From sequence record PX651718.1: a stretch of DNA of 52,949 nt; one strand, given 5' to 3'. Each line of letters starts with the position of its first letter. The stretch's first letter is position 1. The notes below the pieces were generated by a model. That model saw only the letters and a list, made by a program, of their open reading frames with translations. It was not told the origin of the DNA and searched no databases. This document shows positions 38,285-51,571 of the stretch, in pieces. This DNA comes from a phage. The translations under genes and the position numbers were made by a program.

Positions 38285-38350
38285 TTGTGTAATGGCTACG
38301 CTATTATAATCCGTTTCAGTTAAATCATACACAATCTTGGAGACTTACAA

Positions 38351-40291
38351 ATGACTACTATCACCACTCAAACTATCAAATCCGTTGTTCCTGCTATCAC
38401 TGCTCTGGTATACCGTGCCAAAGAGAAGCAGAACTATATGCAGCCTCAGACTTGTGCTATTGCTGCCTTAGCCATATTCAAGATGATGACGTCTTTCACA
38501 CGTGATGACGTTGTTCCTGCCATTGCGATGGTTGAGCTGGCTTCTGCTTCTATTGCTGATGCCAACCGTTACAACAACGATTTGAAAGCAATGCACTATG
38601 TTGACCCAGCTATCAACCTCATTGGTCTGGCTAAGCACTTTGGCTTCATCACCATGAACGAAGACAAGTCATTCCAACAAACTGATACATGGGTTGAACT
38701 GGTTACAACCAAAGACACCGCAGTGCCATTCACCGAGCGTGTTACATCTGAATCTCGTCGCAAGCCTTTCGTTAAAGGTGGCAAAGTTAAGCCATCCAAA
38801 ACTCTGAAAGCTGCAATCGAATTCCTGCAAGATACTGAGTACCATGTGGAGACTGAGATGGTTCGCATCATTCAGTCCATGCTTGAGCAACGTACTTATG
38901 GTGGCTTGCAGATGCCAGAAGCAATCCAGACTGAACTCCATGTTTGGAACAATGCTGTAGCAATGATGAATCAAGACACTCTGTACTCTGACTACTTTGC
39001 TGATAACCGTGGTCGTTTGTATCACGTAGCATGTGCTGGTCCTAACCCACAATCCTCTGACTTTGCTCGTTGCTTGTATTCTCACAATGTTGAGAACATC
39101 GTTAAGAAGTTTAACGAAGATGGTTCTACTACCATTGCATACAACATGTTCATGGCAGAGCTGGAAGATATTTCCGGTGGTGAATGGTGCAGTGCTAAGC
39201 GTTTAACTTATGTTGCACAGAATCCTGCTGGTTCTTTGGCCCGTATGCTGAACATGCCTAAAGCTGAACGTCCTTCTAAGCCATTCACTTATGTTCGTCT
39301 GGCTCTGGATTGGTTCAAGTTTGAGACTACAGGTGAGTGTGATTCTCGTGTAGGCTTTGGCTTAGATGCTAAATGCTCTGGTACTCAATATCTGGCATTC
39401 ATTGCAGGTAACATGGAAATGGCTCGTGCAACAGGTCTGGTTGATTCTGAGACTAAAGCATCTGACCCATACCAGTTATCTCTTCGTGAACTGTTGAAAT
39501 TACTCGACCGTTCTTCAATGAAACCTTCTGTTGAAATCATGGAAGAGTTCTTGAACCCTAAAGCTGGTCGTAAGTTTATCAAAACTCCATACATGGCTAT
39601 TCAATACGGTGGTGGTAAAGCTGCTTTAACTGGTTCATCTGACTTTATCTCCTACATGACAGAAGCTCTCCAGATTCCTATGGAGAAAGTTGAGGCATTT
39701 GCTGAACTGTGTGTAGAAGCAATCCATAACGCATTGGGTGCTAAGATTAACATGTTCATTGAGAAAGCTGCTGATGCTGCATACAACCGTTGTGTTGAAC
39801 TTGGTAAAGAGTACATCACATATCGTCACACTGATGGTCAGGTTGTAATGAAGCCTTGCTTCCCATCTCGTGAAATCTGTGAGGCATTCAGCATTCGTGT
39901 TGATTCTCAAACTCGTGTTATCTTTGGCCAGATTCAGGAGAATAAGCCTTGGACCATTCGTGAATCCAATCCAACTAAAGAAGAATTCAAGCGTACTTTC
40001 GTTGTTAACTACATTCAAGGTATTGACGCACTTGTTGCTCGTACTGTTGCAGTTAAAGCTAAAGAAGCTGGTCTTCGTGGTTTTACTTCAATCCATGATT
40101 GTTTCCGTTGCTGTTTGGCAGATGCTCCACGTATGATGGAAGTTATTCGTGCAGCATATGTTGAAATCTTTGTAACCAACAATCAATTCGAGAATCTGTC
40201 TAAGCAACTCGGTGGCATTCAGATGTATCATGAGAACATCGTAACCGAAGAGCTTCTGATGAGCGAACACGCTTACTACTTCTGTCAATAA
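38351..40291 (+). CDS. single-subunit DNA-dependent RNA polymerase (T7-like, compact 646 aa)
   Basis: Motif A-like LDAKCSGTQY (compare T7 DGSCSGIQH); motif B RKFIKTPYMAIQYGG; motif C SIHDCF; RBS GGAG. Confidence 0.85.
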   Translation: MTTITTQTIKSVVPAITALVYRAKEKQNYMQPQTCAIAALAIFKMMTSFTRDDVVPAIAMVELASASIADANRYNNDLKAMHYVDPAINLIGLAKHFGFITMNEDKSFQQTDTWVELVTTKDTAVPFTERVTSESRRKPFVKGGKVKPSKTLKAAIEFLQDTEYHVETEMVRIIQSMLEQRTYGGLQMPEAIQTELHVWNNAVAMMNQDTLYSDYFADNRGRLYHVACAGPNPQSSDFARCLYSHNVENIVKKFNEDGSTTIAYNMFMAELEDISGGEWCSAKRLTYVAQNPAGSLARMLNMPKAERPSKPFTYVRLALDWFKFETTGECDSRVGFGLDAKCSGTQYLAFIAGNMEMARATGLVDSETKASDPYQLSLRELLKLLDRSSMKPSVEIMEEFLNPKAGRKFIKTPYMAIQYGGGKAALTGSSDFISYMTEALQIPMEKVEAFAELCVEAIHNALGAKINMFIEKAADAAYNRCVELGKEYITYRHTDGQVVMKPCFPSREICEAFSIRVDSQTRVIFGQIQENKPWTIRESNPTKEEFKRTFVVNYIQGIDALVARTVAVKAKEAGLRGFTSIHDCFRCCLADAPRMMEVIRAAYVEIFVTNNQFENLSKQLGGIQMYHENIVTEELLMSEHAYYFCQ

Positions 40292-40299
40292 GAGAAACA

Positions 40300-40340
40300 G
40301 GGCTGTCATCGAAAGGTGATGGCCCTTTCTTTATTCTTTA
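40300..40340 (+). terminator. rho-independent terminator after the RNA polymerase gene
   Basis: GGGC ... CATC-GAAAGGT-GATG ... GCCC stem-loop followed by TTTCTTTATTCTTTA. Confidence 0.55.
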
Positions 40341-40373
40341 TTAATTAAATCCTTTAATTCCCAATATTCAAGC

Positions 40374-40405
40374 AATATTGCTGCATGTAATATTGTTTCA
40401 ATATT
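40374..40405 (+). promoter_or_regulatory. cluster of CAATATT / AATATTG half-sites
   Basis: CAATATTCAAGCAATATTGCTGCATGTAATATTGTTTCAATATTCG: four half-sites within about 45 nt. Confidence 0.35.
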
Positions 40406-40409
40406 CGAC

Positions 40410-40425
40410 ATTAGTTGGATGTGAA
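40410..40425 (+). promoter_or_regulatory. conserved promoter-like motif ATTAGTTGGATGTGAA (consensus copy)
   Basis: Exact consensus. Confidence 0.45.
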
Positions 40426-41074
40426 GTAAAAGAATACGGAGAAATATTACTCACTTCGTTCGTGAGTTACCGCATGTCATGTTGAATCATTCTAGAAACA
40501 TTTAGCATGTCAGCTTTGAGTTACAGCGTTGTAATGATGTGGCAATCATTGAACTCCCTGGGTTGGCCACCTACAGTTCCAGCAACCATGACTTAGAGTA
40601 GGGATATCTATCCGAAACTTGTACTTCACCTATAGCATGTTCAATTGCGACAATATTGCTCCATCTCCTATTATAAAGGCCCACCCACAAGCCGGGAGAT
40701 AACTTTGGTAATATTGGAACTTTTGGACATGCTTCTTTCTTTCTTTCTACAAGAAATCGAAAGAAGAGAAGAGTCGGAGCAAAGCCTCTCGTTTACACGA
40801 AGAAGCCGCCCGATTTTGAGCAACAAATATTGTGACAATTGCGTCGCAGTATGGCATGTAAATATTGCTACAAATTGGCATGTTGGAATGTGGCAGAATT
40901 GTTAGAGGACTAATCACCTCGAAGATACAATCGTCTACCAATCTGGCATGTTAATTTTGTAACAGTATTTGTGCCAATTTCGCATGTAATAGCTGTATCA
41001 GTATTGACCCAATATTCTTGCAACCCGCATGAATACTGGCTTCCAGCCAAGCGAAGGCTTTATCATCGCATGTA

Positions 41075-41091
41075 AATATTGTGACAATATT
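41075..41091 (+). promoter_or_regulatory. perfect 17-bp palindrome AATATTG-TGA-CAATATT preceded by GCATGTA
   Basis: Exact inverted repeat; GCATGT(A/T)AAT...TTG..ACAA units recur at 40853, 40945, 40981 and 41217. Confidence 0.4.
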
Positions 41092-41128
41092 GGGATAAAA
41101 CCCTTTATTTAATTAGTTTTATTATGCT

Positions 41129-41153
41129 GTACATGGTCGGTTTTCCGTACCTG
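41129..41153 (+). repeat. third copy of the GTACATGGTCGG...GTACCTG direct repeat
   Basis: GTACATGGTCGG is identical to 37885-37896. Confidence 0.5.
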
Positions 41154-41285
41154 CTTGCTCCAATCTTAATGTGCCAAATACGTTAAGTATGGGAGTAAAC
41201 CTGTAATTAATGGTGCATGTTTAATTGTGACAAAATTCGTCTATTTGGCAGATGAGTTAGTTGCAATTAAGCATGTTCATTTATC

Positions 41286-41301
41286 ATTAGTTGCATGTGA
41301 A
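41286..41301 (+). promoter_or_regulatory. conserved promoter-like motif ATTAGTTGCATGTGAA
   Basis: 15 of 16 match to consensus. Confidence 0.4.
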
Positions 41302-41399
41302 TAAGACCAAATCTCTGTAAATTCTGCTGAAATTGTGTGACAGATTTTAGAGAGATTATGTCTCCAAGCTAATCATTGTAGTTTTTCGACACTTTGTGT

Positions 41400-41440
41400 G
41401 TCACATATATAGCCTGTGAAAAACGTGTGGTATATTGCTG
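41400..41440 (+). promoter_or_regulatory. possible host sigma70-type promoter with extended -10 (TGGTATATT)
   Basis: TGnTATATT at 41428-41436 about 150 nt upstream of the first early ORF; weak -35. Confidence 0.25.
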
Positions 41441-41591
41441 GATTGCAACGCGCCCACCAGACTAGGAAGTCACTGATGGCGGCACACACAGGAATACTAT
41501 ATAACTCCCTACAACTTTAAGGTGGATTGAGGTAAGACAAGACCTCCACAATCGTTCTGTAGGGAGTTTTCCTTTAACTTTGGAGAATAAA

Positions 41592-41843
41592 ATGGATACC
41601 ATCAACAAACGTGCAAAATTTGCTGACCTATCAGAAGGTCAAATCTTCACTTACAACTCTATCAAATGTATTAAGGTAGAGGGTGAGTGTGGCCTATACA
41701 ACACTGTAAGATTCTATGACTCAAGCCGTGCATGTAAACTTAAAGACAGTGATGTTGTTGAAATCGAAATCGAATTAGAGCCAGATGGTTCAAATGATGA
41801 AATCATTCTGCGTAAAACTGTTGGATACACTAAAGGATTCTGA
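41592..41843 (+). CDS. hypothetical early protein
   Basis: ATG at 41592 with GGAG 6 nt upstream (track ORF starts at an upstream TTG). Confidence 0.55.
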   Translation: MDTINKRAKFADLSEGQIFTYNSIKCIKVEGECGLYNTVRFYDSSRACKLKDSDVVEIEIELEPDGSNDEIILRKTVGYTKGF

Positions 41844-41844
41844 A

Positions 41845-42087
41845 ATGAATTATGCACTGTATCAATATATCAATCGTGATGGTGTTGTTTCTCATGCTTT
41901 GGTCAATACCAAGACCAGAGCAATAATGTTGGCAGACCTAATGTCTGGTTCGTCAATTTACGAAAACAAGCTAGTGTGGAAGAATGCAGCGTATCCTGAA
42001 TACGTTTGGCAAGCAATCCAGAATGACAAACATCACAAAGTTGTGGCAACTGCCGCACATCCAGATTTCCTGAAAGTGAGAGGTTAA
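41845..42087 (+). CDS. hypothetical early protein
   Basis: ATG overlapping the previous stop (TGAAATG). Confidence 0.5.
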   Translation: MNYALYQYINRDGVVSHALVNTKTRAIMLADLMSGSSIYENKLVWKNAAYPEYVWQAIQNDKHHKVVATAAHPDFLKVRG

Positions 42088-42088
42088 C

Positions 42089-42277
42089 ATGGACTTCATC
42101 GTCTACTTTAAGTTAAATGGTGTAGAGCAAAGTTTGTACTTCAATTCTTTACTTCGTTTGCAACAGTGGGCGGAGAAGTTTGTTGGTTATGATTTTGACT
42201 ACATCAACGCATGTACACCTGACGAACATGAGGAAATCGTGTTCAGTTCTTTAAATCAAATTCTGGAGGCCAAGTGA
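42089..42277 (+). CDS. hypothetical early protein
   Basis: Track ORF with GAGAGG RBS. Confidence 0.5.
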   Translation: MDFIVYFKLNGVEQSLYFNSLLRLQQWAEKFVGYDFDYINACTPDEHEEIVFSSLNQILEAK

Positions 42278-42438
42278 AGAAGCTCAAGTACATGACTAAA
42301 ACGGTTACATACATGGCTATGTACGGTGCTTCAAAGCGTAAGGCTAAGAAATTAGCAAGAGCTGCAAATCCTCGTATGCCAGCACGTAAAGTGGCTAAAA
42401 TCGTTAACCTAGTATTTGGGAATTGGAGTGCAAAATGA
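42274..42438 (+). CDS. small basic protein (K/R-rich, 54 aa), hypothetical
   Basis: GTG at 42274 after GGAGG; below the track's 60-aa cutoff. Confidence 0.35.
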   Translation: MKKLKYMTKTVTYMAMYGASKRKAKKLARAANPRMPARKVAKIVNLVFGNWSAK

Positions 42439-42608
42439 ACGACCAGCAATTCAACACATTCATGCAGCAGATTAATCATCAAGAATTGATGGACACTCTC
42501 AAAGGCAAGAAGCCAGTCGAACGTCAATATCGTAAAATTGATAATTATATGCCAACCATTATTGCATGTGTTGGATTTCTAATTGTTCTCTACTTCCTGG
42601 TGAAATAA
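42435..42608 (+). CDS. small protein with C-terminal TM segment
   Basis: ATG at 42435 with GGAG upstream; C-terminal TIIACVGFLIVLYFLV. Confidence 0.45.
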   Translation: MNDQQFNTFMQQINHQELMDTLKGKKPVERQYRKIDNYMPTIIACVGFLIVLYFLVK

Positions 42609-42705
42609 ATGGATATTGTAAAGAAACTCGTATTCTGTATTATGATGTTCCCACTTGTGCTACTTGTTGTTGGCGCATTCATGTACTTTTAATGCCGGAG
42701 TTATT

Positions 42706-42966
42706 ATGGCTACCAGAACAGGCATGATGATTGTCCCAAGCCGTAATAACTCTTTAAGCGGCTTTACACCATATAAAATCTATGAAGTGATTTCTGGCAC
42801 TGGTGAAGCAAACCTGTCAGAAGTTGCTTTGAAGTTGGGCCGTATGGTCCACTCCGAAATCTCCTGTAACGTAGTTGATGATGAAGGCAAAATCCGTTTT
42901 GTAACAATGGATTTCTTTCGTGAATTTAACCTCAAATCTGAATTAGGAGTTCTATACCATGAATGA
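42706..42966 (+). CDS. hypothetical early protein
   Basis: ATG at 42706 with GGAG 5 nt upstream; in frame with track ORF 42655..42966. Confidence 0.5.
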   Translation: MATRTGMMIVPSRNNSLSGFTPYKIYEVISGTGEANLSEVALKLGRMVHSEISCNVVDDEGKIRFVTMDFFREFNLKSELGVLYHE

Positions 42967-43141
42967 TGATGATGTTGTCTGCCCAAGGTGTGGCAGCAAT
43001 AACGTAGACCATGTAGCACACGAAGCAGTGGGAATGTATGGTCCAGTAGTTCTGGATAGTGCATTCTGTATAGATTGTGGTTTAAACATTTATCGTGGAA
43101 AACTTATAGACAATAGTGGGAATATCCCGCCAAAAGGATAA
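42959..43141 (+). CDS. small zinc-ribbon protein
   Basis: CPRCGS ... CIDCG. Confidence 0.5.
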   Translation: MNDDDVVCPRCGSNNVDHVAHEAVGMYGPVVLDSAFCIDCGLNIYRGKLIDNSGNIPPKG

Positions 43142-43143
43142 TC

Positions 43144-43371
43144 ATGAAATTTAAATGTGTTGCTTCAACCAAAGACTATGTTCCAGTTGGCTTCATCGTT
43201 GAAGGTGAAGCTATTTCGCCTTTGGAATTTAAAGTAACAAAATCGGCTGAGAGTGTTTCTCCAGCATTTCGTAAAGGTGCTGTAGTACCTATGAATGGGA
43301 CATTCTGGACATGGCAGCGTGACCATGAAGCAGAATTTGCAGATATTTGTGAACAAGGTTTATTGCAATGA
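43144..43371 (+). CDS. small protein, paralog A (begins MKFKCVASTK)
   Basis: Track ORF with AAAGGA RBS; related to the next gene. Confidence 0.55.
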   Translation: MKFKCVASTKDYVPVGFIVEGEAISPLEFKVTKSAESVSPAFRKGAVVPMNGTFWTWQRDHEAEFADICEQGLLQ

Positions 43372-43598
43372 CAAAGTTTAAATGTGTGAAATCAACCTCC
43401 TCATCTGAACATACTCCGAAAGTTGGGGATGTGATTGAGGGAGAACTTATCCACATACAGAGAAGACACGGAACAGACACTCGAATAGTTATTTCGAATG
43501 TTGGAAACCGAATGGCTGCAAACGGAAGGCCATATTGGAACATTGGTGAAAAGGTTCCGCTAAAAGGTAGTGTCTGGTCCTGGGAAGAAGTCAAATAA
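43368..43598 (+). CDS. small protein, paralog B (begins MTKFKCVKST)
   Basis: Track ORF; ATGA overlap; same N-terminal motif and a shared W-x-W/E pattern near the C-terminus. Confidence 0.55.
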   Translation: MTKFKCVKSTSSSEHTPKVGDVIEGELIHIQRRHGTDTRIVISNVGNRMAANGRPYWNIGEKVPLKGSVWSWEEVK

Positions 43599-43628
43599 TT
43601 TCCTCAACCACTTTTGTGATGAGAGTGG

Positions 43629-43952
43629 TTGCTGAATATTATTAATCAACTTGAAGCATTTATGAAACAACGTACTCGTTTACAACGTGACCCAGCCACA
43701 GGTCGCTTGTTGCCAGCATATTTGAAAGTTGGTGACTTAGTTTACACCCGTGACTTTGCTTTTGACATTTGCCCAAGCAAAGCGTATGAAGTTCTTGCCA
43801 CCAGCTTGTCTGGTCCTAAAGTGATATTCGGTGCACTTGAGCCAATTCAGTTAACTGGAACTCAGTTTGTCATTAAAGACGAATCTGGTTGCAACCGCAT
43901 CTTCAATCTCGAAGGCGGCTTATCCAAATGGGAGAAGGTGAAGCGTGGGTAA
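43629..43952 (+). CDS. hypothetical early protein (start uncertain; ATG at 43662 possible)
   Basis: Track ORF. Confidence 0.45.
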   Translation: MLNIINQLEAFMKQRTRLQRDPATGRLLPAYLKVGDLVYTRDFAFDICPSKAYEVLATSLSGPKVIFGALEPIQLTGTQFVIKDESGCNRIFNLEGGLSKWEKVKRG

Positions 43953-44178
43953 GAATTATATCGAAATGTTTAAACGACTGCCCATTAATGGGCAGGAGTT
44001 CTTACTAAACGATGCAAGACAAGATGTGGAGCTGTCTGATAAATACAGCTTCTCGTATCAGAGGACTATTGTAAAATGGACGTTCTCTTACATATCCTAC
44101 AATCTTCCAGGAGAAACGCTTGTGATTAGTGGTTCTGGAGATTCCGTATTATCCGCTTTGGAGAAACTAAAGCAATGA
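43945..44178 (+). CDS. hypothetical early protein
   Basis: Track ORF with GTG start and AAGGTGA RBS. Confidence 0.45.
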   Translation: MGKNYIEMFKRLPINGQEFLLNDARQDVELSDKYSFSYQRTIVKWTFSYISYNLPGETLVISGSGDSVLSALEKLKQ

Positions 44179-44462
44179 ACAAGAATTCAGTCTTACGTTA
44201 TGTTGGTAAAACAAACTACAACTTTACCAACGGTAAGAAATACAAAATCGTCGCAGGTCGTGGTGACGGGGTTCCTCGCAACAACGGTACACTCGGTGCG
44301 TATATTCAATCTCCTTTGGGTTTTGTCGTTAATGACGATAACCGCAATTTATGTTATCGTACATTCTCCGATAATTGGGAACTTGTGAAAGATTCTGGTG
44401 AAGTTAGTTGGTATAAGCCTGAATCAAACATGGACCCAATTCCAATCTCAAAGGTAATGTAA
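44175..44462 (+). CDS. hypothetical early protein
   Basis: Track ORF. Confidence 0.5.
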   Translation: MNKNSVLRYVGKTNYNFTNGKKYKIVAGRGDGVPRNNGTLGAYIQSPLGFVVNDDNRNLCYRTFSDNWELVKDSGEVSWYKPESNMDPIPISKVM

Positions 44463-44704
44463 TGAAGGAAGATATTAAGGAAATATTTGCAGGATTGGTT
44501 CTTCCTATCATTGTTTGTGTTGTTGCAATTGCATTTGTGATTGTGTTGCCTACATACTTTGTTTACAAATATGAATGCAAAACCTTTGCAGAATTGCAGC
44601 AAACTGAGTTCAAATACACAATCAATGGTACGTGCTACATTGAATCACCAAGCGGTGAATGGATTACCAAAGATATGTGGTACTTTGACAAACTGACTCG
44701 TTAA
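44462..44704 (+). CDS. small membrane protein (one TM segment)
   Basis: Track ORF; hydrophobic LVLPIIVCVVAIAFVIVLPTYFVY. Confidence 0.5.
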   Translation: MKEDIKEIFAGLVLPIIVCVVAIAFVIVLPTYFVYKYECKTFAELQQTEFKYTINGTCYIESPSGEWITKDMWYFDKLTR

Positions 44705-44746
44705 ATTAACAAGGAGCATTCATTGAGTGTTCCTGATTAATCTAAC

Positions 44747-44762
44747 ATTAGTTGAATGTGAA
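44747..44762 (+). promoter_or_regulatory. conserved promoter-like motif ATTAGTTGAATGTGAA
   Basis: 15 of 16 match; about 20 nt upstream of the RBS of the next gene. Confidence 0.45.
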
Positions 44763-44783
44763 TAACAACTTTTGGAGGTATTT

Positions 44784-45305
44784 ATGTTTTACACTGGTGT
44801 GGGAAGTCGTGAAACTCCTGAGCATATTTGCGAACTGCTGACTAGAGTAGCTTCCAAACTGGCCAGACTTGGTTGGGTAGTTCGCACAGGAGGTGCTCAA
44901 GGTGCTGACGAAGCATTTCTGGCTGGCTGCAACGGAAGGACAGAGAACTTTATACCTTGGAATGGTTTTGGAAGTTATGGTGGCGTAGTACCGGACCTGA
45001 ATCGAAATTGGGAATACCTGCAAAGTGTTGAAAACGTAAACCCACTAATCCACAGGAAAGAGACAAGAAACCTTGACAAATATAGAGGATTTTGGAAACT
45101 ACAGGCACGAAATGTTAGTCAGGTGCTTGGACTTAATTTAGACACTCCATCCAAGTTTTGTATCTTATACGCTCCGACAACATCAACTGGTGTGAGTGGC
45201 GGCACCAACACTGCATATCAGGTTGCAGTTCAGTCCGGGATACCTTGTTTTAACCTGTTTGACCCTGCTATAGTGGCAAGGTTTGAGAAATTTGTATCTG
45301 AGTGA
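44784..45305 (+). CDS. Rossmann-fold DprA/SLOG-superfamily-like protein
   Basis: YTGVGSRETP ... RTGGAQGADEAF resembles the DprA/Smf-type GSR ... SG.A.G.D..A signature; ATG at 44784 with GGAGG upstream. Confidence 0.45.
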   Translation: MFYTGVGSRETPEHICELLTRVASKLARLGWVVRTGGAQGADEAFLAGCNGRTENFIPWNGFGSYGGVVPDLNRNWEYLQSVENVNPLIHRKETRNLDKYRGFWKLQARNVSQVLGLNLDTPSKFCILYAPTTSTGVSGGTNTAYQVAVQSGIPCFNLFDPAIVARFEKFVSE

Positions 45306-45342
45306 TTATCAGGGTGCATTTACGAGTGTACCCGAATAATCC

Positions 45343-45358
45343 AAATAGTTGGATTTGA
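45343..45358 (+). promoter_or_regulatory. weaker copy of the promoter-like motif (AATAGTTGGATTTGAA)
   Basis: 14 of 16 match. Confidence 0.3.
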
Positions 45359-45433
45359 AGAGGGACAAAGCTATTCCGTGGTTAGCAATGTCACTGAAAC
45401 TTAAACTGTAATTAACTTAAGAGAATCTTAATC

Positions 45434-45811
45434 ATGGCACAATATTCAGATGTAAACACTGGCATCATCGGTCCTAACGGCTTCAAGAAAGACCCAAAAC
45501 ATCCCGACATTCGTGGGCGTATTAACGTTGACGGAATCTGGTATTGGGTGTCTGGTTGGAACAAGCAAGCAAATGGTAATGAGTTTACCTCACTTGCATT
45601 AACCATCATGACCCAAGAACAGGTCGATGAAATGATGCGTAAGCGTGAAGAGAAAGCTAAAGCCAAAGCTCAACCTCAAGCTGCCGCTCAACAGCAACAG
45701 CAACGTCAGCAACCTTCTGCACAACAGCAAGCACCTGCTCAGCAACAGACGCAGAACAGTAACTACAATCCGAACGAGCCGAAAGACTTCGACGACGACA
45801 TTCCGTTCTAA
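45434..45811 (+). CDS. compact ssDNA-binding-like protein carrying the E. coli SSB C-terminal tip DFDDDIPF
   Basis: C-terminal ...PKDFDDDIPF; Q/A/P-rich linker; short N-terminal beta-rich domain with GIWYWVSGW. Confidence 0.6.
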   Translation: MAQYSDVNTGIIGPNGFKKDPKHPDIRGRINVDGIWYWVSGWNKQANGNEFTSLALTIMTQEQVDEMMRKREEKAKAKAQPQAAAQQQQQRQQPSAQQQAPAQQQTQNSNYNPNEPKDFDDDIPF

Positions 45812-45821
45812 TGGAGATGCC

Positions 45822-45850
45822 CTATGAAAATTCTATGTTTTATAGGGCTA
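45822..45850 (+). terminator. possible terminator hairpin
   Basis: CCCTAT ... ATAGGG stem with T-rich loop after the stop at 45811. Confidence 0.3.
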
Positions 45851-45920
45851 CATAATTGGGAGATTTCTCATACAAACGATTATGTAACCTTTTGGGTGTG
45901 TAAGAACTGTTCAGCAATGC

Positions 45921-46811
45921 GTGAGGAATATCGTGGGAACTAAGGCTATCAAAATTCCGGTAAATTTGGTATCGAAAGGTGATATATACCTGCACGATTG
46001 CAAAGAGTACCTAATAGAAAGGATACTCCATTTTGCCAACATTGTACAACTGCAATATAATGGAGGATATTTCAACTTGGACGCATACAAGATTGTGGAA
46101 ATTGTCGATAAGCATGAAAATGCGCCAAAGGTTACTCCAGTCAAAGCTGGGATGGTTGTAGCAGGTGAAACACTTAGCTATGGTGTAAACTTCTTCTACA
46201 TTACTCGCGTAGAAGATTATGGTTCAGATGTTCGACTGCATCACTCGAAAGGGTACTTCGACTTTGTGAAGAGTAGGGTTGTCTACGTTGTTAACCCAGG
46301 CCCAATGGCAAGCTCACCAACAATTGAGTTCCCAAACCAAATAAATCCAATATTCCTTCCTGTGGAGGAGTTCAAGAAGCAGGAAATATCCGATGAAGAA
46401 GATGTTCTCGGAAAAGATGTAGAAGTTGGCGATGTTATTTGGGTAAATGGAAATTGGGCAACTGTAACAAACGTGTACAAACATCCACATTCGCCAGCCA
46501 ATAAAGTGAATGTAGACTATGGAAACATTAAAGGTTTACAAGTACGGCTGGCATTAACTGGAACATTCTCAAGAAAGGTAAGAGCAGTAATGGAAACATT
46601 AAATATTCAAAATGCAATCGAAGCACAACGCATTCTTCTGCAAAAGCTGGAGCAAATGTTGGAGTTAACTCAGCTTCCGCCAACAGAAGATGGCAAGATT
46701 GCAGTTGGTAACTGTAATATTCGCGTGGACAAGGCATCAATCTCTAAAGCCGCGCGCGATGAAATGAAAGCTGCTGCGAGCAAATCCGCAGAGCTTATCA
46801 AGAAGCTGTAA
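45921..46811 (+). CDS. hypothetical protein (296 aa)
   Basis: Track ORF with GTG start. Confidence 0.5.
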   Translation: MRNIVGTKAIKIPVNLVSKGDIYLHDCKEYLIERILHFANIVQLQYNGGYFNLDAYKIVEIVDKHENAPKVTPVKAGMVVAGETLSYGVNFFYITRVEDYGSDVRLHHSKGYFDFVKSRVVYVVNPGPMASSPTIEFPNQINPIFLPVEEFKKQEISDEEDVLGKDVEVGDVIWVNGNWATVTNVYKHPHSPANKVNVDYGNIKGLQVRLALTGTFSRKVRAVMETLNIQNAIEAQRILLQKLEQMLELTQLPPTEDGKIAVGNCNIRVDKASISKAARDEMKAAASKSAELIKKL

Positions 46812-46863
46812 TTAACAGAGGTCATTCCACTTCGAGTGGCCTCGATTAATTATTGGAGGAATT

Positions 46864-47223
46864 ATGAAACTTAAATACATCATTATTTATACTCTGGCAT
46901 TAATTGTTTTGGCGTTCTTTAGCTTTGAGTCTAAAGCGTCAACAAAGAACTTTAAATGTGGAGCATATACTCTTGTAGTTGATAACATCGGAGACAGCCA
47001 ACCTCTGATTGCGTCAATAATTCCTGAATCTGGTGTTTGGATAGAAGTCCCAAGTGATGAGCCAAATCCTGCAACAGTTTTATTTTACAACATTAAAGAT
47101 AGCAGGTTTGCTGCACTGTTTATAAATCATGAAGATAAACTTGTGCTACAGATTTTCCGTGATGGGGATTTCCTCAAAGCAAACTATCCTGTCTTATCCA
47201 CCAGCTGTACGGAGAAGAAATGA
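46864..47223 (+). CDS. secreted/periplasmic protein with N-terminal signal peptide
   Basis: MKLKYIIIYTLALIVLAFFSFESKAS; RBS GGAGG. Confidence 0.55.
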   Translation: MKLKYIIIYTLALIVLAFFSFESKASTKNFKCGAYTLVVDNIGDSQPLIASIIPESGVWIEVPSDEPNPATVLFYNIKDSRFAALFINHEDKLVLQIFRDGDFLKANYPVLSTSCTEKK

Positions 47224-47453
47224 CTTCAACAGAATTTATTATTGATGGGGTTCAATACCTGCTGGAATCCAATTGCGAGTATCGCCATTGGGCAGTAATT
47301 CACGACCGAGTTGTAAAATACTTGGAACGTGTAGGGAAGGAAACTGCTAAATCTATGTTGTTTGAGGCAACAGTTCTTGGAACAACCTCAATCAATAAAG
47401 AATTAGTGTCTTTCAAATTAACCATTCACCCTAGTGGGAATAGCTTTCAATGA
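47220..47453 (+). CDS. hypothetical protein
   Basis: Track ORF; ATGA overlap. Confidence 0.5.
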   Translation: MTSTEFIIDGVQYLLESNCEYRHWAVIHDRVVKYLERVGKETAKSMLFEATVLGTTSINKELVSFKLTIHPSGNSFQ

Positions 47454-47725
47454 TTTCAATAGACCAAGTTCCAGTTGAACTAAGTAAGGCAAAAGGTAAG
47501 CTAGACGATGCCAAATCTGACTTATCTACCTTTGATTTAAATGCTCCGGCCGATAAAGTTAGGGTTTTCATCGGCTGTATTGATGGATGGGTGCTTATTG
47601 AGCATGGAGTCCTTCGAGCATTACTTGTTGATGAAGTTGCCAAGGCTCAGAAAGCATTTGACGAGATTGATAACCTCAACACACTGTTAAACAATACTTT
47701 AAGCGATGCGCTAAAGGATAAGTAA
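47450..47725 (+). CDS. hypothetical protein
   Basis: Track ORF. Confidence 0.5.
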   Translation: MISIDQVPVELSKAKGKLDDAKSDLSTFDLNAPADKVRVFIGCIDGWVLIEHGVLRALLVDEVAKAQKAFDEIDNLNTLLNNTLSDALKDK

Positions 47726-48138
47726 TGAATGTTAAGCTCGGTCAACGTTCTTTGGACCGACTTAAGGGAGTAAATCCTTCATTAGTTGCAGTTTTCAAAC
47801 GTGCATGTGAAACAATGCCTTTTGATGTGACTGTTTTGGAAGGTTTACGCTCTTATGAACGTCAACAAGAACTGTTAAAACAGGGTGCAACCAAAGTTTC
47901 AGTTAGCCGACACATGTCAGGCAACGCTTTAGACATTGCACCATATCCAATTGACTGGAATGACCTCGAACGATTCAAAGTTTTAGCTCATCATATGTTC
48001 AAAGCTGCAAAAGAGCTTGGAATTACCATTCGTTGGGGTGGGAACTGGAGCCGTATTGATGAAAATCAGCCGTATCCACCACTTGCGCCAGGTAAGAAGA
48101 AGCTGATTGATATGCCGCACTTCGAACTTCCAGCATAA
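47725..48138 (+). CDS. peptidase M15-family peptidoglycan hydrolase
   Basis: SRHMSGNALDIAP (His...Asp zinc ligands) and C-terminal PHFELP, as in M15 phage endolysins. Confidence 0.7.
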   Translation: MNVKLGQRSLDRLKGVNPSLVAVFKRACETMPFDVTVLEGLRSYERQQELLKQGATKVSVSRHMSGNALDIAPYPIDWNDLERFKVLAHHMFKAAKELGITIRWGGNWSRIDENQPYPPLAPGKKKLIDMPHFELPA

Positions 48139-48146
48139 CTTCATCA

Positions 48147-48437
48147 ATGGAGCATCCGATGGAATATCAGGAAATACCGAAAGAGTTAGAGCGTATGCAA
48201 TCTCGCACATCTCGTGCAGAGGCAGAACTCCACCAGCATTTGTCAAACTATGTGTATGATTCTCGAAATCTCAGATACGAAATTTCGGTAGATGGTTGTT
48301 GCTATCCGGTAACATACGATGAGAAGACCGCCATCTTAGACATATTAGTGAAGGGTGGAAAAGAGCGGATTGAACAGCTCAAAATCCTTAATGCGGAACT
48401 TCAAGGTATGTGGGAGAAACTAAATGCAAAACGATAG
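48147..48437 (+). CDS. hypothetical protein
   Basis: Track ORF. Confidence 0.45.
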   Translation: MEHPMEYQEIPKELERMQSRTSRAEAELHQHLSNYVYDSRNLRYEISVDGCCYPVTYDEKTAILDILVKGGKERIEQLKILNAELQGMWEKLNAKR

Positions 48438-48972
48438 CATTGCTCAAGCAGTAGAACAGCTAAAGTCCTGGCGTAGAGATGAAACCTTATTGGTTCGTTT
48501 CTACACAGGCGAAACTAATTCTGAATTTGTAGATGCGTGGATTGATGGCCTGTCTTGGCGTCATTATGACTTCAACATGCGAGACTATTTGCATGAAGAA
48601 TACGGCATTGAATATCCAGAAGACGGTACATATGACGTAATTGAGTCAAATGAAGAAGATGTTACCGAAGTTTGCTTTGTTGACGGGCTGTTCAGCATTC
48701 GTAAATACGACAAGTTCAACGAACTGCTTGTTGATACTGATTTGGATGTAATTCTTGCAGCATTCCGTAGTGGTGATATTGATATTTTCACTGTGGATGA
48801 TTTGAACGACATGTTCATCACACGTTGCGACTCAATTACAGAATATTTGAAGCAAAGTGAGGCACTGGATATTCCAGACCGCCTTGCACCATATATTGAT
48901 TGGGATGCAATCACCAGAGATTATGGAAGTGACTACATTTTCTCTGAGGGAATATTATTCTTAAATGCGTGA
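48424..48972 (+). CDS. hypothetical acidic protein
   Basis: Track ORF. Confidence 0.5.
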   Translation: MQNDSIAQAVEQLKSWRRDETLLVRFYTGETNSEFVDAWIDGLSWRHYDFNMRDYLHEEYGIEYPEDGTYDVIESNEEDVTEVCFVDGLFSIRKYDKFNELLVDTDLDVILAAFRSGDIDIFTVDDLNDMFITRCDSITEYLKQSEALDIPDRLAPYIDWDAITRDYGSDYIFSEGILFLNA

Positions 48973-49276
48973 TTTAAATATTGCTGAACTTGAGGCTGGA
49001 TTGATTGTTCACCACCAGCCTCGAAACACTTTCTATCGTATTCTTGGGCCTACAAAGATTAAAACTCACTGCGGAAGTTGGGTGGATGGGTTTGCTTACC
49101 AAGAAGTGAAGAAGTACGGGGGACCATACTTTCTTAAGTATTGATTCTTCTACCATCTACACACGACCGAAAGAGCTATTTGACTCAGACTGGAAAACAC
49201 TATAGTTCCAGGCGGGTTTCTTCGAAGTGCCAAGCGGGTTTTGTGCTCGCATTGGCCTTCGGCTTTAGTCTGAAAC

Positions 49277-49292
49277 ATTAGTGGGATTTGAT
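49277..49292 (+). promoter_or_regulatory. promoter-like motif variant ATTAGTGGGATTTGAT preceded by TCTGAAAC
   Basis: Upstream TCTGAAAC is shared with the copies at 49417 and 51572. Confidence 0.35.
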
Positions 49293-49416
49293 TCTGACCA
49301 CTTAGGGAAGAAAGGCATTATACACTTATCGCCAAATGGGTGTCAAGCACTTTCTTCATTTATTTAATTTATTCTTATTATTCTTTTTGTTTGGAATATT
49401 GGAATAATTCTGAAAC

Positions 49417-49432
49417 ATTAGTTGGAGATGAA
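49417..49432 (+). promoter_or_regulatory. promoter-like motif ATTAGTTGGAGATGAA preceded by TCTGAAAC
   Basis: Immediately upstream of the ATG at 49433; the motif's GGAG doubles as RBS. Confidence 0.45.
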
Positions 49433-49609
49433 ATGATTAAAGTTCTGGAAAAAGATACAGTAACTTTCACACGCCAATGTCGGTTATGTGCTTCTGTTGT
49501 GTCTTATGAATTCTCGGACTTAAAGATATACACAGGGAAGAATGACCGAGGATATTTCGCATATAGATTTATCACTTGTCCTGTTTGCAAGAAAGACATT
49601 CGACATTAG
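49433..49609 (+). CDS. small zinc-ribbon protein (58 aa)
   Basis: CRLCAS ... CPVCKK; ATG at 49433, in frame with track ORF 49340..49609. Confidence 0.5.
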   Translation: MIKVLEKDTVTFTRQCRLCASVVSYEFSDLKIYTGKNDRGYFAYRFITCPVCKKDIRH

Positions 49610-49620
49610 TTGGAATTGAA
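49605..49620 (+). promoter_or_regulatory. promoter-like motif ATTAGTTGGAATTGAA
   Basis: 14 of 16 match; followed by about 640 nt without a convincing ORF. Confidence 0.4.
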
Positions 49621-50255
49621 ACAACATCAGATAAGAACTTTGTAACTAGGTAGTCCGTCTGGTACCAAGGCGTGTGAGAACGTTCGATTCGTTCTACAAA
49701 GTTCTTTTCGATGGAATGTTTCCATCATATTACATTTATCTTTTAACATAGGCCATAGGGCCGGAATACTTCTTCGCAGAAAAGCTATTCACTTGTTATA
49801 GGCGATGTATTGGGATGAATTGGAACTAAATAAGCAAGCTGTTAGGGCTGAATAATTAGAGGGTTATGCCTCATGCTTATGTTAGTCATTCGAAAATAGG
49901 TTTGTGCCACAAGCTGCTGGTGCTCTGAGGAAGTCGGACAAACAGGGCTTAGAGTGGCATAATCCGCACAAAACCGCGCCACCAGCTATGCCAAAGCGGG
50001 TGGATTGGGTGAATGTATTGGGAAGGGTTGCAAAGCCTCTGTGACACGCCTGAGCCGCAAGGCGACGACACTCATGTGATTAGCGTATCGCACCCTAACG
50101 GGAGTAACCCTTCACCAATGCAGTTATCCAGAATTGACACAAACGGTAGGCAGCGGCCCGATTTTCGGCCTTCCTGCGCTACCCTGTGGCCTGTTCATGG
50201 GCCAAAAGATGAGAAGAGAAGTCACAAACACTGAATCGAAAATTGGAGAGTTCCT
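49621..50255 (+). ncRNA. candidate structured non-coding RNA region (unclassified) downstream of a promoter-like motif
   Basis: No credible ORF on either strand; several stable hairpins including tRNA T-arm-like GAGAACG-TTCGATT-CGTTCTA with acceptor-like pairing CTTTGTA/TACAAAG (49638-49702). Confidence 0.3.
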
Positions 50256-50576
50256 ATGATTCGCAAGCATTCTGCTAAAGTTTTGACGTTGAGAAATGTA
50301 CTAATGTTCCCTTCAAGTGGGGAAGGAGAGGAAGAAACAATCCACTTCGTTCTCGTTGGTGGGCGTTGGTACTATAACGGCACCAATTCTTTCCACGTAA
50401 GTCTGTCGGAGAAAGATGGATTCTGGAAGCACACCTTTAAGGAGTTGCTTGAAAGCAGTGCCAACTACACCCTTGCCGAAGTTAAGAAATATTTCTACTA
50501 CGGCCCAAACAAGTCCATGCAAATCGCAACTCGCAATTGGACAACAAACCAACCGATTTACGGAGTTCCATTTTGA
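50256..50576 (+). CDS. hypothetical protein
   Basis: Track ORF with GGAGAG RBS. Confidence 0.55.
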   Translation: MIRKHSAKVLTLRNVLMFPSSGEGEEETIHFVLVGGRWYYNGTNSFHVSLSEKDGFWKHTFKELLESSANYTLAEVKKYFYYGPNKSMQIATRNWTTNQPIYGVPF

Positions 50577-50863
50577 ACTTACAAGACAAATCTAAAGAAG
50601 AGTTGATTGAGATTATCCAGAAAGAGCACGAACTCGCTGGCATCACAATTAACTTTGAACTCCAGGCAATGCAAGCTGTTGCTTTGGGTCATGGTCTAAT
50701 GGCTACACTCATTCATGCCAAGAATGTGTTAGGCGTTGACAACGAAAAATACCAAATTCTGGAGAAAGCTGCGCAAGAGCGGATTTCGCAGTGCTTGGTG
50801 ACATTAGTTGATTTGGGAATCGACGCAGAAACTGCGAACAAACGTATCCTACAAGGCCACTAA
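50573..50863 (+). CDS. hypothetical protein (TTG start overlapping the previous stop)
   Basis: TTG at 50573 with GGAG 7 nt upstream; in frame with track ORF 50537..50863. Confidence 0.45.
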   Translation: MNLQDKSKEELIEIIQKEHELAGITINFELQAMQAVALGHGLMATLIHAKNVLGVDNEKYQILEKAAQERISQCLVTLVDLGIDAETANKRILQGH

Positions 50864-50865
50864 AA

Positions 50866-51540
50866 ATGTCTTATCATGATGATGACAAAGAGATTGCACT
50901 ATCAACGTGTAAGCAATGGCTCAATGATAATGATGCCGTCTATCTTGCCAAGGAAGATGTTATCATTATGTGGGTCCATTTTAATCCAGAATCGAAGCGC
51001 GGTGAGTGGCAACGCTACAAGATGAAAGAGGCTTGTCGCATAATTAAAGCCACACGCGCTGGCTTCTCCGCCATGAAATATATTAAGCCGGAGATGCTGA
51101 TGCTTGCTGCACAGGAAGAAGAACGTGCATATAAGCAGGCTGTTAAATCTCGTTCAACTGTTCCTCCAGAGTTCTTTAATTTGGAGCGCGCTGGACACTT
51201 CAACAATTTAGAAATGTTGACACTGTGCCTGTTGCAAGAATTAGTTGGAAGAGGACAAAACATTGAAGCTGTTTGTCTTGGAGAACTTATGAAAGAGTTG
51301 TTCTCGGCAAAGGGCTTTGCTGTGCCAAATCGAACTTTACGCTGGAAATTGTTGCGAGCAGTCGCGCAAGAAGCTGGTGTAGTTGTTCGTGACAGAACAA
51401 ACCGACTCACTGTAACTGGAGTTGGGCGTTTTGTAGCAATCCAGATTGAGGGTTATGACGAATCAATCATCACTGAACTCACTGTCGCTGAGACAAAGGA
51501 TTTAGTAAATAAAACACTAGAACGATTCAACAGATACTGA
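50866..51540 (+). CDS. hypothetical protein (224 aa)
   Basis: Track ORF. Confidence 0.55.
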   Translation: MSYHDDDKEIALSTCKQWLNDNDAVYLAKEDVIIMWVHFNPESKRGEWQRYKMKEACRIIKATRAGFSAMKYIKPEMLMLAAQEEERAYKQAVKSRSTVPPEFFNLERAGHFNNLEMLTLCLLQELVGRGQNIEAVCLGELMKELFSAKGFAVPNRTLRWKLLRAVAQEAGVVVRDRTNRLTVTGVGRFVAIQIEGYDESIITELTVAETKDLVNKTLERFNRY

Positions 51541-51571
51541 GTCGTTTGACGAATCAGAGCAGTTCTGAAAC

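What the first reader, a model, noticed from the sequence alone, without database searches (positions are those of the whole stretch)
45434..45811. Small protein carrying the exact E. coli SSB C-terminal tip (DFDDDIPF)
The 125-aa product has a short beta-rich, Trp-containing N-terminal domain, a Gln/Ala/Pro-rich linker and the terminal sequence DFDDDIPF, which in E. coli SSB is the docking site for many replication and repair proteins. It is either a minimal phage SSB that recruits host SSB partners, or a decoy that titrates them. Two other products also end in -PF (6522..7388 GMPF; 51664..52002 EEAPVF).
Basis: partly seen in the sequence, partly recalled or inferred. Interest (0 to 1): 0.7.

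Follow-up and report, generated by a model that had tools for sequence, protein, structure and literature searches.

The report
Non-OB phage SSB with host tail
A small early protein of this E. coli phage carries the exact docking peptide of the host's single-stranded-DNA-binding protein on a body predicted not to have the usual SSB (OB) fold; it belongs to a large, untested family found in the DNA replication and recombination gene clusters of many phages.

Summary
ORF 45434..45811 (+) encodes 125 aa ending in DFDDDIPF, the last eight residues of E. coli SSB. The window is a near-complete phiEcoM-GJ1-like myophage (Chaseviridae). The protein is identical to phage ST32 "SSB" and has been annotated as SSB since 2008.

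An exhaustive profile search finds about 1,970 clusters of small proteins with this N-domain. Of the best 149, 94 end in -PF, 82 of them behind acidic residues. Members sit beside annealases and exonucleases, helicases, or DNA polymerases, including DpoZ/PurZ clusters of 2-aminoadenine-genome phages.

The phage also encodes a separate 288-aa OB-fold, SSB-like protein (6522..7388) in its replication module.

Best reading: a non-OB ssDNA-binding protein that uses a host-type SSB tip to recruit SSB partners. A pure decoy is less likely but not excluded. This is a new variant of a known kind, and nothing about it has been tested experimentally.

The parts
45434..45811 (+). CDS of the 125-aa SSB-like protein, stop codon included. 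Identical to Escherichia phage ST32 'single strand DNA binding protein' YP_009790679.1 and homologous to phiEcoM-GJ1 gp15.
   Evidence: phrog_7364 E=1.9e-42
45434..45613 (+). Residues 1-60: conserved beta-domain with predicted strands 10-14, 26-32, 35-46 and 49-60. It is the core of a family of about 1,970 clusters. G10, N15, P24, G28, G34 and W42 are at least 90% conserved across that family.
   Evidence: AlphaFold2 pLDDT 81-93; exhaustive HMMER search; alignments A3 and A5
45614..45670 (+). Residues 61-79: predicted alpha-helix (TQEQVDEMMRKREEKAKAKA). It is specific to a subfamily; the profile match reaches the helix in only 56 of 156 family sequences.
45671..45784 (+). Residues 80-117: disordered Gln/Ala/Pro-rich linker, comparable to the intrinsically disordered linker of E. 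coli SSB.
   Evidence: pLDDT 33-44; composition; BLASTP and NCBIfam alignments to the SSB linker and tail
45785..45808 (+). Residues 118-125: DFDDDIPF, identical to the C-terminal tip of E. coli SSB (SSB-Ct).
   Evidence: conservation
45420..45426 (+). Shine-Dalgarno-like AAGAGAA, 7 nt upstream of the ATG.
   Evidence: the same element is listed for ST32 ORF19 in PMC6266442
45342..45359 (+). Degenerate copy, with a 2-nt deletion, of the phage-RNA-polymerase promoter that lies directly upstream of gp15 in phiEcoM-GJ1 ('putative phage promoter 3').
44743..44762 (+). Intact phage-promoter-like site TAACATTAGTTGAATGTGAA, upstream of the DprA-like gene. It probably drives the DprA-like and SSB-like genes as one transcription unit (inferred).
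   Evidence: position-weight scan built from the seven annotated phiEcoM-GJ1 promoters; alignment A6
44772..45305 (+). Upstream neighbour: DprA-like recombination-mediator-like protein. It is present in this phage and some relatives but absent from phiEcoM-GJ1, so it is not a conserved partner.
   Evidence: phrog_768 E=2.3e-49; PF02481 E=0.0011, below the cutoff
6522..7388 (+). 288-aa OB-fold, SSB-like protein. By synteny with phage PO103-1 it lies in the unannotated gap between the DNA polymerase and 5'-3' exonuclease genes. It has a disordered C-terminus ending in PF, and homologues end in P[FYW] or D/E-W after acidic residues. It is the candidate replicative SSB.
51664..52002 (+). 112-aa protein with an Ala/Glu-rich tail ending in Phe (EEAPVF). 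The terminal Phe is kept in the Myduc, Faunus and PP101 homologues. Function unknown.

Best explanation
The gene encodes a modular, non-OB single-stranded-DNA-binding protein.

A small beta-sheet domain of about 60 residues, here followed by one helix, is predicted to work as a dimer or higher oligomer and to bind ssDNA on its sheet face. Its predicted fold resembles the PC4/Pur-alpha type, and its closest sequence relative is DUF736. The domain is tethered by a disordered Q/A/P-rich linker to a copy of the host SSB C-terminal tip.

On phage ssDNA (replication forks, recombination intermediates), the exposed tips would dock into the same pockets that read E. coli SSB-Ct. Known SSB-Ct readers include the Pol III chi subunit, PriA, RecQ, RecO, RecJ, ExoI, UDG, Topo III and DnaG. 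This would bring host genome-maintenance enzymes, and possibly phage enzymes that read the same motif, to phage DNA.

Shown:
- the three-part architecture;
- conservation of the tail;
- absence of any OB-fold signature;
- size of the family;
- the genomic neighbourhoods of family members.

Inferred:
- ssDNA binding;
- oligomerisation;
- the identity of the partners.
For: 1. The tail is identical to E. coli SSB-Ct, and F-D-x-x-I-P-F is invariant in Chaseviridae homologues.
2. The N-domain profile finds 1,973 cluster representatives at E<=1e-3. Of the best 149, 94 end in -PF, 82 of these behind acidic residues, so the domain-plus-tip combination is a family trait.
3. Outside Chaseviridae, members sit in the SSB position of DNA-metabolism modules:
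   - after ERF and a RecE-like exonuclease (L003);
   - after an ExoVIII-like nuclease (L005);
   - in an element with a RecT-like annealase and YqaJ (L014);
   - next to helicases (L010);
   - next to DNA polymerase I, PrimPol and PurZ (L008, phiVC8, K21lambda1).
4. [quoted passage not shown]
6. hhalign of the family profile against a PC4 profile aligns strands 2-4 in register. P=4e-4 and score 25.9, against a mean of 9.2, sd 2.5 and maximum 17.2 for 100 column-shuffled controls.
7. 17 of 156 family sequences carry two N-domains in tandem before a single tail. PC4-like folds occur both as homodimers and as tandem repeats in one chain (PMC7549692), so this fits a domain that functions as a dimer.
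8. There is precedent. The PC4-like protein of phage T5 has been proposed as that phage's replicative SSB, and the helix-less PC4-like protein AcrIIA22 exists (PMC7549692 and PMC8545432). Phage SSB tails recruit partners, as in Sak4-SSB of HK620 (PMC5928155).
9. In phiEcoM-GJ1 the gene has a phage promoter directly upstream.
Against: - No member of this family has been shown to bind ssDNA. The 'SSB' label was propagated from tail similarity: phiVC8 p31 cites phiEcoM-GJ1 gp15, which in turn cites two other proteins.
- The helix that defines the PC4-like fold is missing in about two thirds of family members.
- The phage already has a separate OB-fold, SSB-like protein in its replication module, so a second SSB is not obviously needed.
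- Some homologues carry 11-16 extra residues after ...IPF (P0013, P0014, phiVC8 p31). If real, these extensions would bury the terminal carboxylate that SSB-Ct readers require.
- The N-domain is only weakly basic, with a net charge of +1.
Confidence: 0.55

Rival explanations
1. Decoy or competitor. The protein is made early and in quantity so that its SSB-type tips occupy the SSB-Ct pockets of host enzymes. This would uncouple host SSB from its partners, shutting off host replication or repair or disarming an SSB-dependent host response. The N-domain would serve mainly to oligomerise the tails, not to bind ssDNA.
For: - The tip is an exact copy of the host peptide.
- The gene lies in the early region among many small genes of unknown function, not in the replication module.
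- The phage has its own OB-fold, SSB-like protein elsewhere.
- The N-domain has little net positive charge.
Against: - Across unrelated phages the family sits in the SSB position next to annealases, exonucleases, helicases and polymerases, including temperate-type elements where shutting off the host would make little sense.
- In phiVC8 it is the only protein annotated as SSB in the stretch examined, and in K21lambda1 it lies directly between the polymerase and PurZ genes.
- The N-domain is strongly conserved, including aromatic residues, which is more than an oligomerisation scaffold would need.
Confidence: 0.15
2. The tail mainly recruits phage-encoded partners such as the phage DNA polymerase, primase-helicase, 5'-3' exonuclease or DprA-like protein, as in T7 gp2.5 or HK620 SSB-Sak4. 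The identity with the host tip would then be ancestral or coincidental rather than a means of hijacking host proteins.
For: - Three proteins of this phage end in a flexible tail with a conserved terminal Phe. By my own knowledge this resembles T7, where gp2.5 and gp4 both carry acidic Phe-terminated tails that bind the polymerase.
- Family genes abut phage polymerase genes.
- The HK620 SSB tail recruits the phage's own Sak4 (PMC5928155).
Against: - The tip is identical to the host's over 8 residues here. In other family representatives (P0038, P0044, P0046, P0051, P0059) it matches over 12-15 residues, for example PSNEPPMDFDDDIPF in P0051. This points to selection for host-type readers.
- The two roles are not mutually exclusive.
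Confidence: 0.15
3. A nucleic-acid-transaction factor other than an SSB. Candidates are a transcription cofactor for the phage or host RNA polymerase (as PC4, N4 SSB and LUZ7 Drc are) or a DNA-topology or nicking protein (as the PC4-like AcrIIA22 is).
For: - The predicted fold is PC4-like.
- PC4-like and other small phage ssDNA binders act in transcription or nicking (PMC7145618; PMC8545432).
- The phage encodes its own RNA polymerase and uses phage-specific promoters.
Against: - This does not explain a family-wide SSB-Ct tip.
- The gene neighbourhoods are replication and recombination modules, not transcription modules.
Confidence: 0.08
4. A canonical but minimal OB-fold SSB, that is, a true homologue of bacterial SSB as the database annotation implies.
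For: - It is annotated as SSB in GenBank and PHROGs.
- It gives weak NCBIfam SSB hits.
- There is a chance-level similarity to the Shiga toxin B subunit, an OB fold, at E=0.4-0.8.
Against: - The NCBIfam hits cover only residues 42-125 against the linker and tail part of the SSB models, scoring 26 bits against a cutoff of 260.
- There is no PF00436 hit.
- phmmer with the E. coli SSB OB domain finds nothing in any window ORF.
Confidence: 0.04

Closest known systems
E. coli SSB (PF00436 / TIGR00621)
   Same: It has a disordered Gly/Gln/Pro-type linker followed by the identical C-terminal tip DFDDDIPF. The presumed role is to coat ssDNA and act as a hub for SSB-interacting proteins.
   Different: The N-terminal domain has no detectable sequence or predicted structural similarity to the OB fold. 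It is about half the size (roughly 60-79 aa against about 112 aa). There is no evidence for a tetramer.
Phage T5 PC4-like protein (PDB 4bg7) and the PC4-like fold group (PC4, YdbC/DUF2128, SP_0782, Pur-alpha)
   Same: It is a small beta-beta-beta-beta-alpha domain encoded by a phage. In T5 the equivalent protein has been proposed as the replicative or recombination SSB. The group includes both homodimeric and tandem-repeat forms. The profile-profile alignment to PC4 covers strands 2-4 in register.
DUF736 (PF05284), a backbone gene of rhizobial ICEs and plasmids, function unknown
   Same: It is the only Pfam family that recurs in weak hits: 8 of 48 N-domains, best E=0.0011. JGI/IMG labels one family member 'DUF736 family'.
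   Different: The window protein itself does not hit DUF736. All hits are weak (best E=0.0011; scores and cutoffs were not listed). The function of DUF736 is unknown, so the relationship explains nothing mechanistic.
AcrIIA22 (PDB 7jta)
   Same: It is a phage or prophage-encoded four-stranded PC4-like sheet that lacks the C-terminal helix and oligomerises through its sheets. This is a precedent for the helix-less majority of the family.
   Different: AcrIIA22 is a nickase with no SSB-type tail.
HK620 SSB-Sak4 and T7 gp2.5
   Same: These are phage SSBs whose C-terminal aromatic or acidic tail is required to recruit a partner: Sak4 annealase for HK620, and DNA polymerase or helicase for T7.
   Different: Both are OB-fold proteins. 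Their tails (NDYPPF; ...DGDF, the latter from my own knowledge) are not copies of the host tip.
PrgE of plasmid pCF10 (PDB 8s4s), relevant to the neighbouring 288-aa protein only
   Different: Only 12% sequence identity. The phage protein is twice as long and has a helical C-terminal region and a PF tail.

Membership tests
Bacterial SSB family (PF00436 / TIGR00621) | N-terminal OB-fold domain that matches the family model above its cutoff | tested here: not met
   No PF00436 hit even at E<=10. The TIGR00621 and PRK09010 hits cover residues 40-125 only, at 22.8 and 26 bits against cutoffs of 53.95 and 260. phmmer with E. coli SSB residues 1-115 finds no window ORF.
Bacterial SSB family (PF00436 / TIGR00621) | Intrinsically disordered linker followed by an acidic tip ending in (D/E)xIPF | tested here: met
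   pLDDT below 50 for residues 80-119 and 122-125. The tip DFDDDIPF is identical to E. coli SSB.
Bacterial SSB family (PF00436 / TIGR00621) | OB-fold three-dimensional structure | tested here: not met
   [not shown]
Bacterial SSB family (PF00436 / TIGR00621) | Cooperative high-affinity ssDNA binding as a homotetramer | not testable with these tools
   Needs purified protein (EMSA, SEC-MALS).
PC4-like fold group (PF02229 PC4, DUF2128, Pur-alpha, T5 4bg7) | [quoted passage not shown] | tested here: met
   Predicted strands 10-14, 26-32, 35-46 and 49-60, and helix 61-79, with pLDDT 81-93. The helix is absent in 100 of 156 family sequences; AcrIIA22 is a helix-less precedent.
PC4-like fold group (PF02229 PC4, DUF2128, Pur-alpha, T5 4bg7) | Significant structural similarity to solved members | tested here: inconclusive
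   [not shown]
PC4-like fold group (PF02229 PC4, DUF2128, Pur-alpha, T5 4bg7) | Sequence or profile similarity to PC4 | tested here: inconclusive
   No PF02229 hit. hhalign of the family profile against a PC4 profile gives P=4e-4, probability 35% and score 25.9, above all 100 column-shuffled controls (maximum 17.2). Single phage PC4-like sequences give nothing.
PC4-like fold group (PF02229 PC4, DUF2128, Pur-alpha, T5 4bg7) | Dimer, or tandem repeat in one chain, forming the nucleic-acid-binding unit | tested here: inconclusive
   Indirect only. 17 of 156 family sequences have two N-domains in one chain. No multimer prediction was available.
DUF736 (PF05284) | Match to the Pfam model above the gathering score | tested here: not met
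   The window protein gives no hit. 8 of 48 family N-domains hit weakly, best E=0.0011. JGI/IMG names P0056 'DUF736 family'.
PHROG 7364 (annotated 'single strand DNA binding protein') | Match to the PHROG profile | tested here: met
   E=1.9e-42, residues 1-91 against profile positions 1-93. The family name is an annotation, not a tested function.

The most novel reading that the evidence does not exclude
The N-domain defines a previously unrecognised, very widespread class of non-OB ssDNA-binding proteins, DUF736-like with a PC4-like or new fold. This class would have joined, independently of the OB-fold SSBs, to the bacterial SSB linker and tip. In many phages it would be the only SSB, including 2-aminoadenine (Z-genome) phages, where its gene lies next to DpoZ and PurZ. 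In this phage, which also has an OB-fold SSB, it would act as a dedicated adaptor that diverts the host SSB interactome to phage DNA.
Probability: 0.3. Interest if true: 0.7.

Novelty: new variant of a known kind. Interest (0 to 1): 0.5.

Why it matters
SSB-Ct is the universal docking peptide of the bacterial genome-maintenance network. Finding it on a different DNA-binding scaffold, across about two thousand sequence clusters, is a natural domain-swap experiment. It shows that the tip works as a portable module.

It would also give a compact, 83-130-aa system for asking which host enzymes a phage needs to capture.

On the practical side, it flags a database annotation ('SSB') that was propagated from tail similarity alone. 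It also identifies the unannotated 288-aa OB-fold protein as the more likely replicative SSB of Chaseviridae.

If the protein acts partly as a competitor of host SSB, it would be a natural inhibitor of an interaction surface already pursued as an antibacterial target (PMC5872125, abstract listed).

Tried and rejected
1. Recent capture of the host ssb 3' end. blastn of 45640-45811 against 5,426 E. coli genomes and 72,556 plasmids gave only matches of about 40 nt at 81-83% identity to ssb 3' ends (E=2-6). That level is what coding for the same peptide would give, so there is no evidence of DNA transfer.

2. OB fold. Rejected, as set out above. The recurring weak hit to Shiga toxin B (E=0.4-0.8) covers only the 'VDGxEYWxSxW' hairpin and I treat it as chance.

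3. A solved structure of a family member. A profile search of the PDB found none.

4. A conserved gene pair between the 288-aa OB-fold protein and the proteins encoded upstream of family members in other phages (phiVC8 p32 and the 285-aa protein of L005). hhalign probability was about 0.1%, so they are unrelated.

5. DprA-like protein as an obligate partner. Rejected, because the gene is absent from phiEcoM-GJ1, where the promoter directly precedes gp15.

6. afdb50 fold search. The library was not available.

7. Representative P0036 (1,158 aa, 21 repeats, E=1e-35) is a repeat-driven false positive and was excluded.

8. Literature. Full-text searches for phiEcoM-GJ1 with SSB, Chaseviridae with SSB, DUF736, DDDIPF with phage, PC4-like with phage and SSB, and phiVC8 with ssDNA found no experimental study of this family.

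9. Sigma-70 promoter and terminator scan of 44600-46000. It found nothing above shuffle expectation.

Full report
**What the window is.** The 52.9-kb window is a nearly complete genome of a phiEcoM-GJ1-like E. coli myophage (family Chaseviridae, subfamily Cleopatravirinae). Megablast of 1-25000 gives 98% identity to phage PO103-1 over 99% of the query, and 44000-47500 matches the same phage group. The 125-aa protein under study is identical in sequence to the 'single strand DNA binding protein' of Escherichia phage ST32, YP_009790679.1. It is the homologue of phiEcoM-GJ1 gp15.

**Checking the observation.** ORF 45434..45811 (+) starts at an ATG that lies 7 nt downstream of AAGAGAA. It encodes MAQYSDVNTG...NPNEPKDFDDDIPF. 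I verified the E. coli SSB sequence against PDB 1eqq. The last eight residues are identical, and BLASTP aligns residues 80-125 with SSB residues 131-178, that is, the linker and tip only. Residues 1-60 contain W36, W38 and W42. Residues 80-117 have 16 Gln, 6 Ala and 5 Pro out of 38. In 20 homologues down to 61% identity, F119, D120, I123, P124 and F125 are invariant.

**What was already known.** Relatives annotate this gene as an SSB, and PHROG 7364, annotated SSB, matches at E=1.9e-42. The ST32 paper simply lists it as an ssDNA-binding protein by similarity to gp15 (PMC6266442). phiVC8 p31 is in turn annotated by similarity to gp15. I found no experimental work on any member.

The annotation rests on the tail:
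- Pfam gives no SSB or OB hit even at E<=10.
- The NCBIfam SSB models align only to residues 40-125 and score 23-26 bits against cutoffs of 54-260.
- The only SSB match among PDB sequences is the tail of 7f2n, at E=0.19.
- phmmer with the OB domain of E. coli SSB finds no ORF anywhere in the window.

**Structure of the N-domain.** AlphaFold2, run on a 20-sequence alignment, gives pLDDT 81-93 for residues 11-70. It predicts strands 10-14, 26-32, 35-46 and 49-60, a helix at 61-79, and disorder for residues 80-119 and 122-125.

The same pipeline applied to the 288-aa protein of this phage returns OB-fold proteins, so the method is able to see OB folds.

A local hhalign of the N-domain family profile against a PC4 profile aligns strands 2-4 in register. 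P is 4e-4, probability 35% and score 25.9. One hundred column-shuffled PC4 alignments gave a mean of 9.2, sd 2.5 and maximum 17.2, and the reversed alignment scored 12.6. This is suggestive but not proof. Column shuffling also destroys strand periodicity, so part of the signal may reflect shared secondary structure rather than homology.

**The family.** An exhaustive HMMER search with the N-domain profile against 1.84 billion cluster representatives found 1,973 proteins at E<=1e-3 and 111 at E<=1e-10. Most are 70-170 aa long. Among the best 149:
- 94 end in -PF, 66 of them in -IPF;
- 82 of those 94 have acidic residues just before the -PF;
- 18 more end in an acidic-aromatic motif;
- several of the rest look truncated.

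Some carry 12-15 residues identical to E. coli SSB, for example PSNEPPMDFDDDIPF in P0051.

Other features of the family:
- 17 of 156 sequences have two N-domains in tandem before a single tail.
- The helix is present in only 56 of 156. The Chaseviridae proteins belong to this helix-bearing subfamily. A helix-less PC4-like protein, AcrIIA22, is known (PMC8545432).
- The only recurrent Pfam link is DUF736: 8 of 48 N-domains hit it, best E=0.0011, and JGI/IMG names one member 'DUF736 family'. DUF736 is a conserved backbone gene of Mesorhizobium ICEs and has no known function (PMC8627217).
- No family member has a solved structure detectable by sequence.

**Genomic context.** Outside Chaseviridae, members lie in the following places:
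- directly after a RecE-like (YqaJ) exonuclease in an operon that also encodes an ERF annealase (L003);
- after an ExoVIII-like nuclease and two unknown proteins (L005);
- in an element with YqaJ, a RecT-like annealase, a resolvase and an integrase (L014);
- next to a UvrD/Dda-like helicase (L010);
- directly upstream of DNA polymerase I, PrimPol and an adenylosuccinate-synthetase homologue (L008).

In cultured phages:
- phiVC8 has the tandem-domain form between a helicase cluster and an endonuclease, DNA polymerase I and primase.
- Klebsiella phage K21lambda1 has it between DNA polymerase I and the PurZ and DatZ genes of 2-aminoadenine biosynthesis.

These are the positions where phages normally encode an SSB. 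This is the strongest argument that the family acts on ssDNA in replication and recombination rather than as a free decoy.

**Context in this phage.** The gene lies in the early or middle region, which is transcribed from phage-specific promoters. A weight matrix built from the seven annotated phiEcoM-GJ1 promoters finds nine sites, all on the + strand, between 38265 and 51568. In phiEcoM-GJ1, 'promoter 3' lies immediately upstream of gp15. In this window a DprA-like gene (phrog_768) has been inserted there. An intact promoter copy precedes it at 44743-44762, and a degenerate copy with a 2-nt deletion remains at 45342-45359, just before the SSB-like gene. The DprA-like gene is therefore a recent neighbour, not a conserved partner.

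The third product, 51664..52002, also keeps a terminal Phe after an Ala/Glu-rich tail in the Proteus, Erwinia and Pectobacterium phage homologues. Its function is unknown.

**Mechanism proposed.** The most likely reading (confidence about 0.55) is a modular ssDNA-binding protein. An oligomerising beta-sheet domain binds ssDNA, and the flexible linker presents host-type SSB tips that dock host SSB-interacting enzymes, and perhaps phage enzymes, onto phage DNA. Precedents are the role proposed for the PC4-like protein in T5 and the demonstrated tail dependence of the HK620 SSB-Sak4 pair (PMC5928155). The architecture, tail conservation, absence of an OB signature and gene contexts are shown. DNA binding, oligomeric state and partners are inferred.

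The main rivals are:
- a tail-mediated competitor of host SSB (0.15);
- a tail that mainly serves phage partners (0.15);
- a transcription or topology factor of the PC4, Drc or AcrIIA22 kind (0.08);
- a cryptic OB-fold SSB (0.04).

**Points against, and open points.**
- The fold assignment is weak.
- The helix is not universal in the family.
- The N-domain is only weakly basic.
- Some homologues (P0013, P0014, phiVC8 p31) are annotated with 11-16 residues after ...IPF, in phiVC8 next to an inserted endonuclease gene. If translated, these would block the terminal carboxylate that SSB-Ct readers need.
- There is no DNA-level sign that the tail was recently copied from a host or plasmid ssb gene.

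**Verdict.** The gene is already labelled SSB, so its presumed function is not new. The new points are these: the body is not an OB fold, the protein belongs to a very large uncharacterised DUF736-like family with a predicted PC4-like fold that almost always carries an SSB-type tip, and this phage has a separate OB-fold SSB candidate. I rate it a new variant of a known kind, of moderate interest (0.5).

Noticed in passing
[not shown]
   Followed up: yes
window 51664..52002 (+): This 112-aa protein (phrog_17419, unknown function) has an Ala/Glu-rich tail ending in Phe (EEAPVF). The terminal Phe is kept in the Proteus phage Myduc (GEAIF), Erwinia phage Faunus (EQPAF) and Pectobacterium phage PP101 (EPAMF) homologues. 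It is the third protein of this phage with a flexible Phe-terminated tail.
   Followed up: partly
window 44730..44762 and 45316..45360: About 45 nt containing the phage promoter is present twice, flanking the DprA-like gene. The upstream copy is intact. The copy next to the SSB-like gene has a 2-nt deletion within the promoter. phiEcoM-GJ1 has a single copy and no DprA-like gene. The DprA-like gene therefore looks like a cassette inserted with duplication of the promoter.
   Followed up: partly
window 38265..51568 (+): Nine matches to the phiEcoM-GJ1 phage-promoter consensus (AAACATTAGTTGGATGTGAA) were found, all on the + strand and all in the early or middle region. They start at 38265, 40406, 41282, 44743, 49273, 49413, 49601, 51236 and 51568.
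   Followed up: no
L021 4001..4516 (phiVC8 p31); proteins P0013, P0014, P0088, P0110, P0171: Several family members are annotated with 5-16 extra residues after the ...IPF or ...LPF tip, for example phiVC8 ...DFDDDIPFMDTYHRQSKLGHCV and P0013 ...IPFAPIGLQEGRRYLHCI. In phiVC8 the extension overlaps the start of an adjacent endonuclease gene. It is unclear whether these extensions are translated or are gene-calling or insertion artefacts.
   Followed up: no
L022 5001..5336 (Klebsiella phage K21lambda1); L008 5001..5477; L021: In phages with 2-aminoadenine (Z-genome) gene sets, the family member lies inside the DNA polymerase I (DpoZ-type) / PurZ / DatZ cluster. In K21lambda1 it sits directly between the polymerase and PurZ genes.
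   Followed up: partly
window 45824..45943 (+): A 39-aa ORF directly downstream (MKILCFIGLHNWEISHTNDYVTFWVCKNCSAMREEYRGN) contains a CxxC motif. It corresponds in position and length to phiEcoM-GJ1 gp16 and has no family match.
   Followed up: no
protein P0036 (search hit, not in the window): This 1,158-aa protein consists of 21 near-identical repeats of about 52 aa. It scored E=1e-35 against the N-domain profile through a repeated '...PGYWYSSW...' motif. It looks like a repeat-driven false positive, probably of eukaryotic origin.
   Followed up: no
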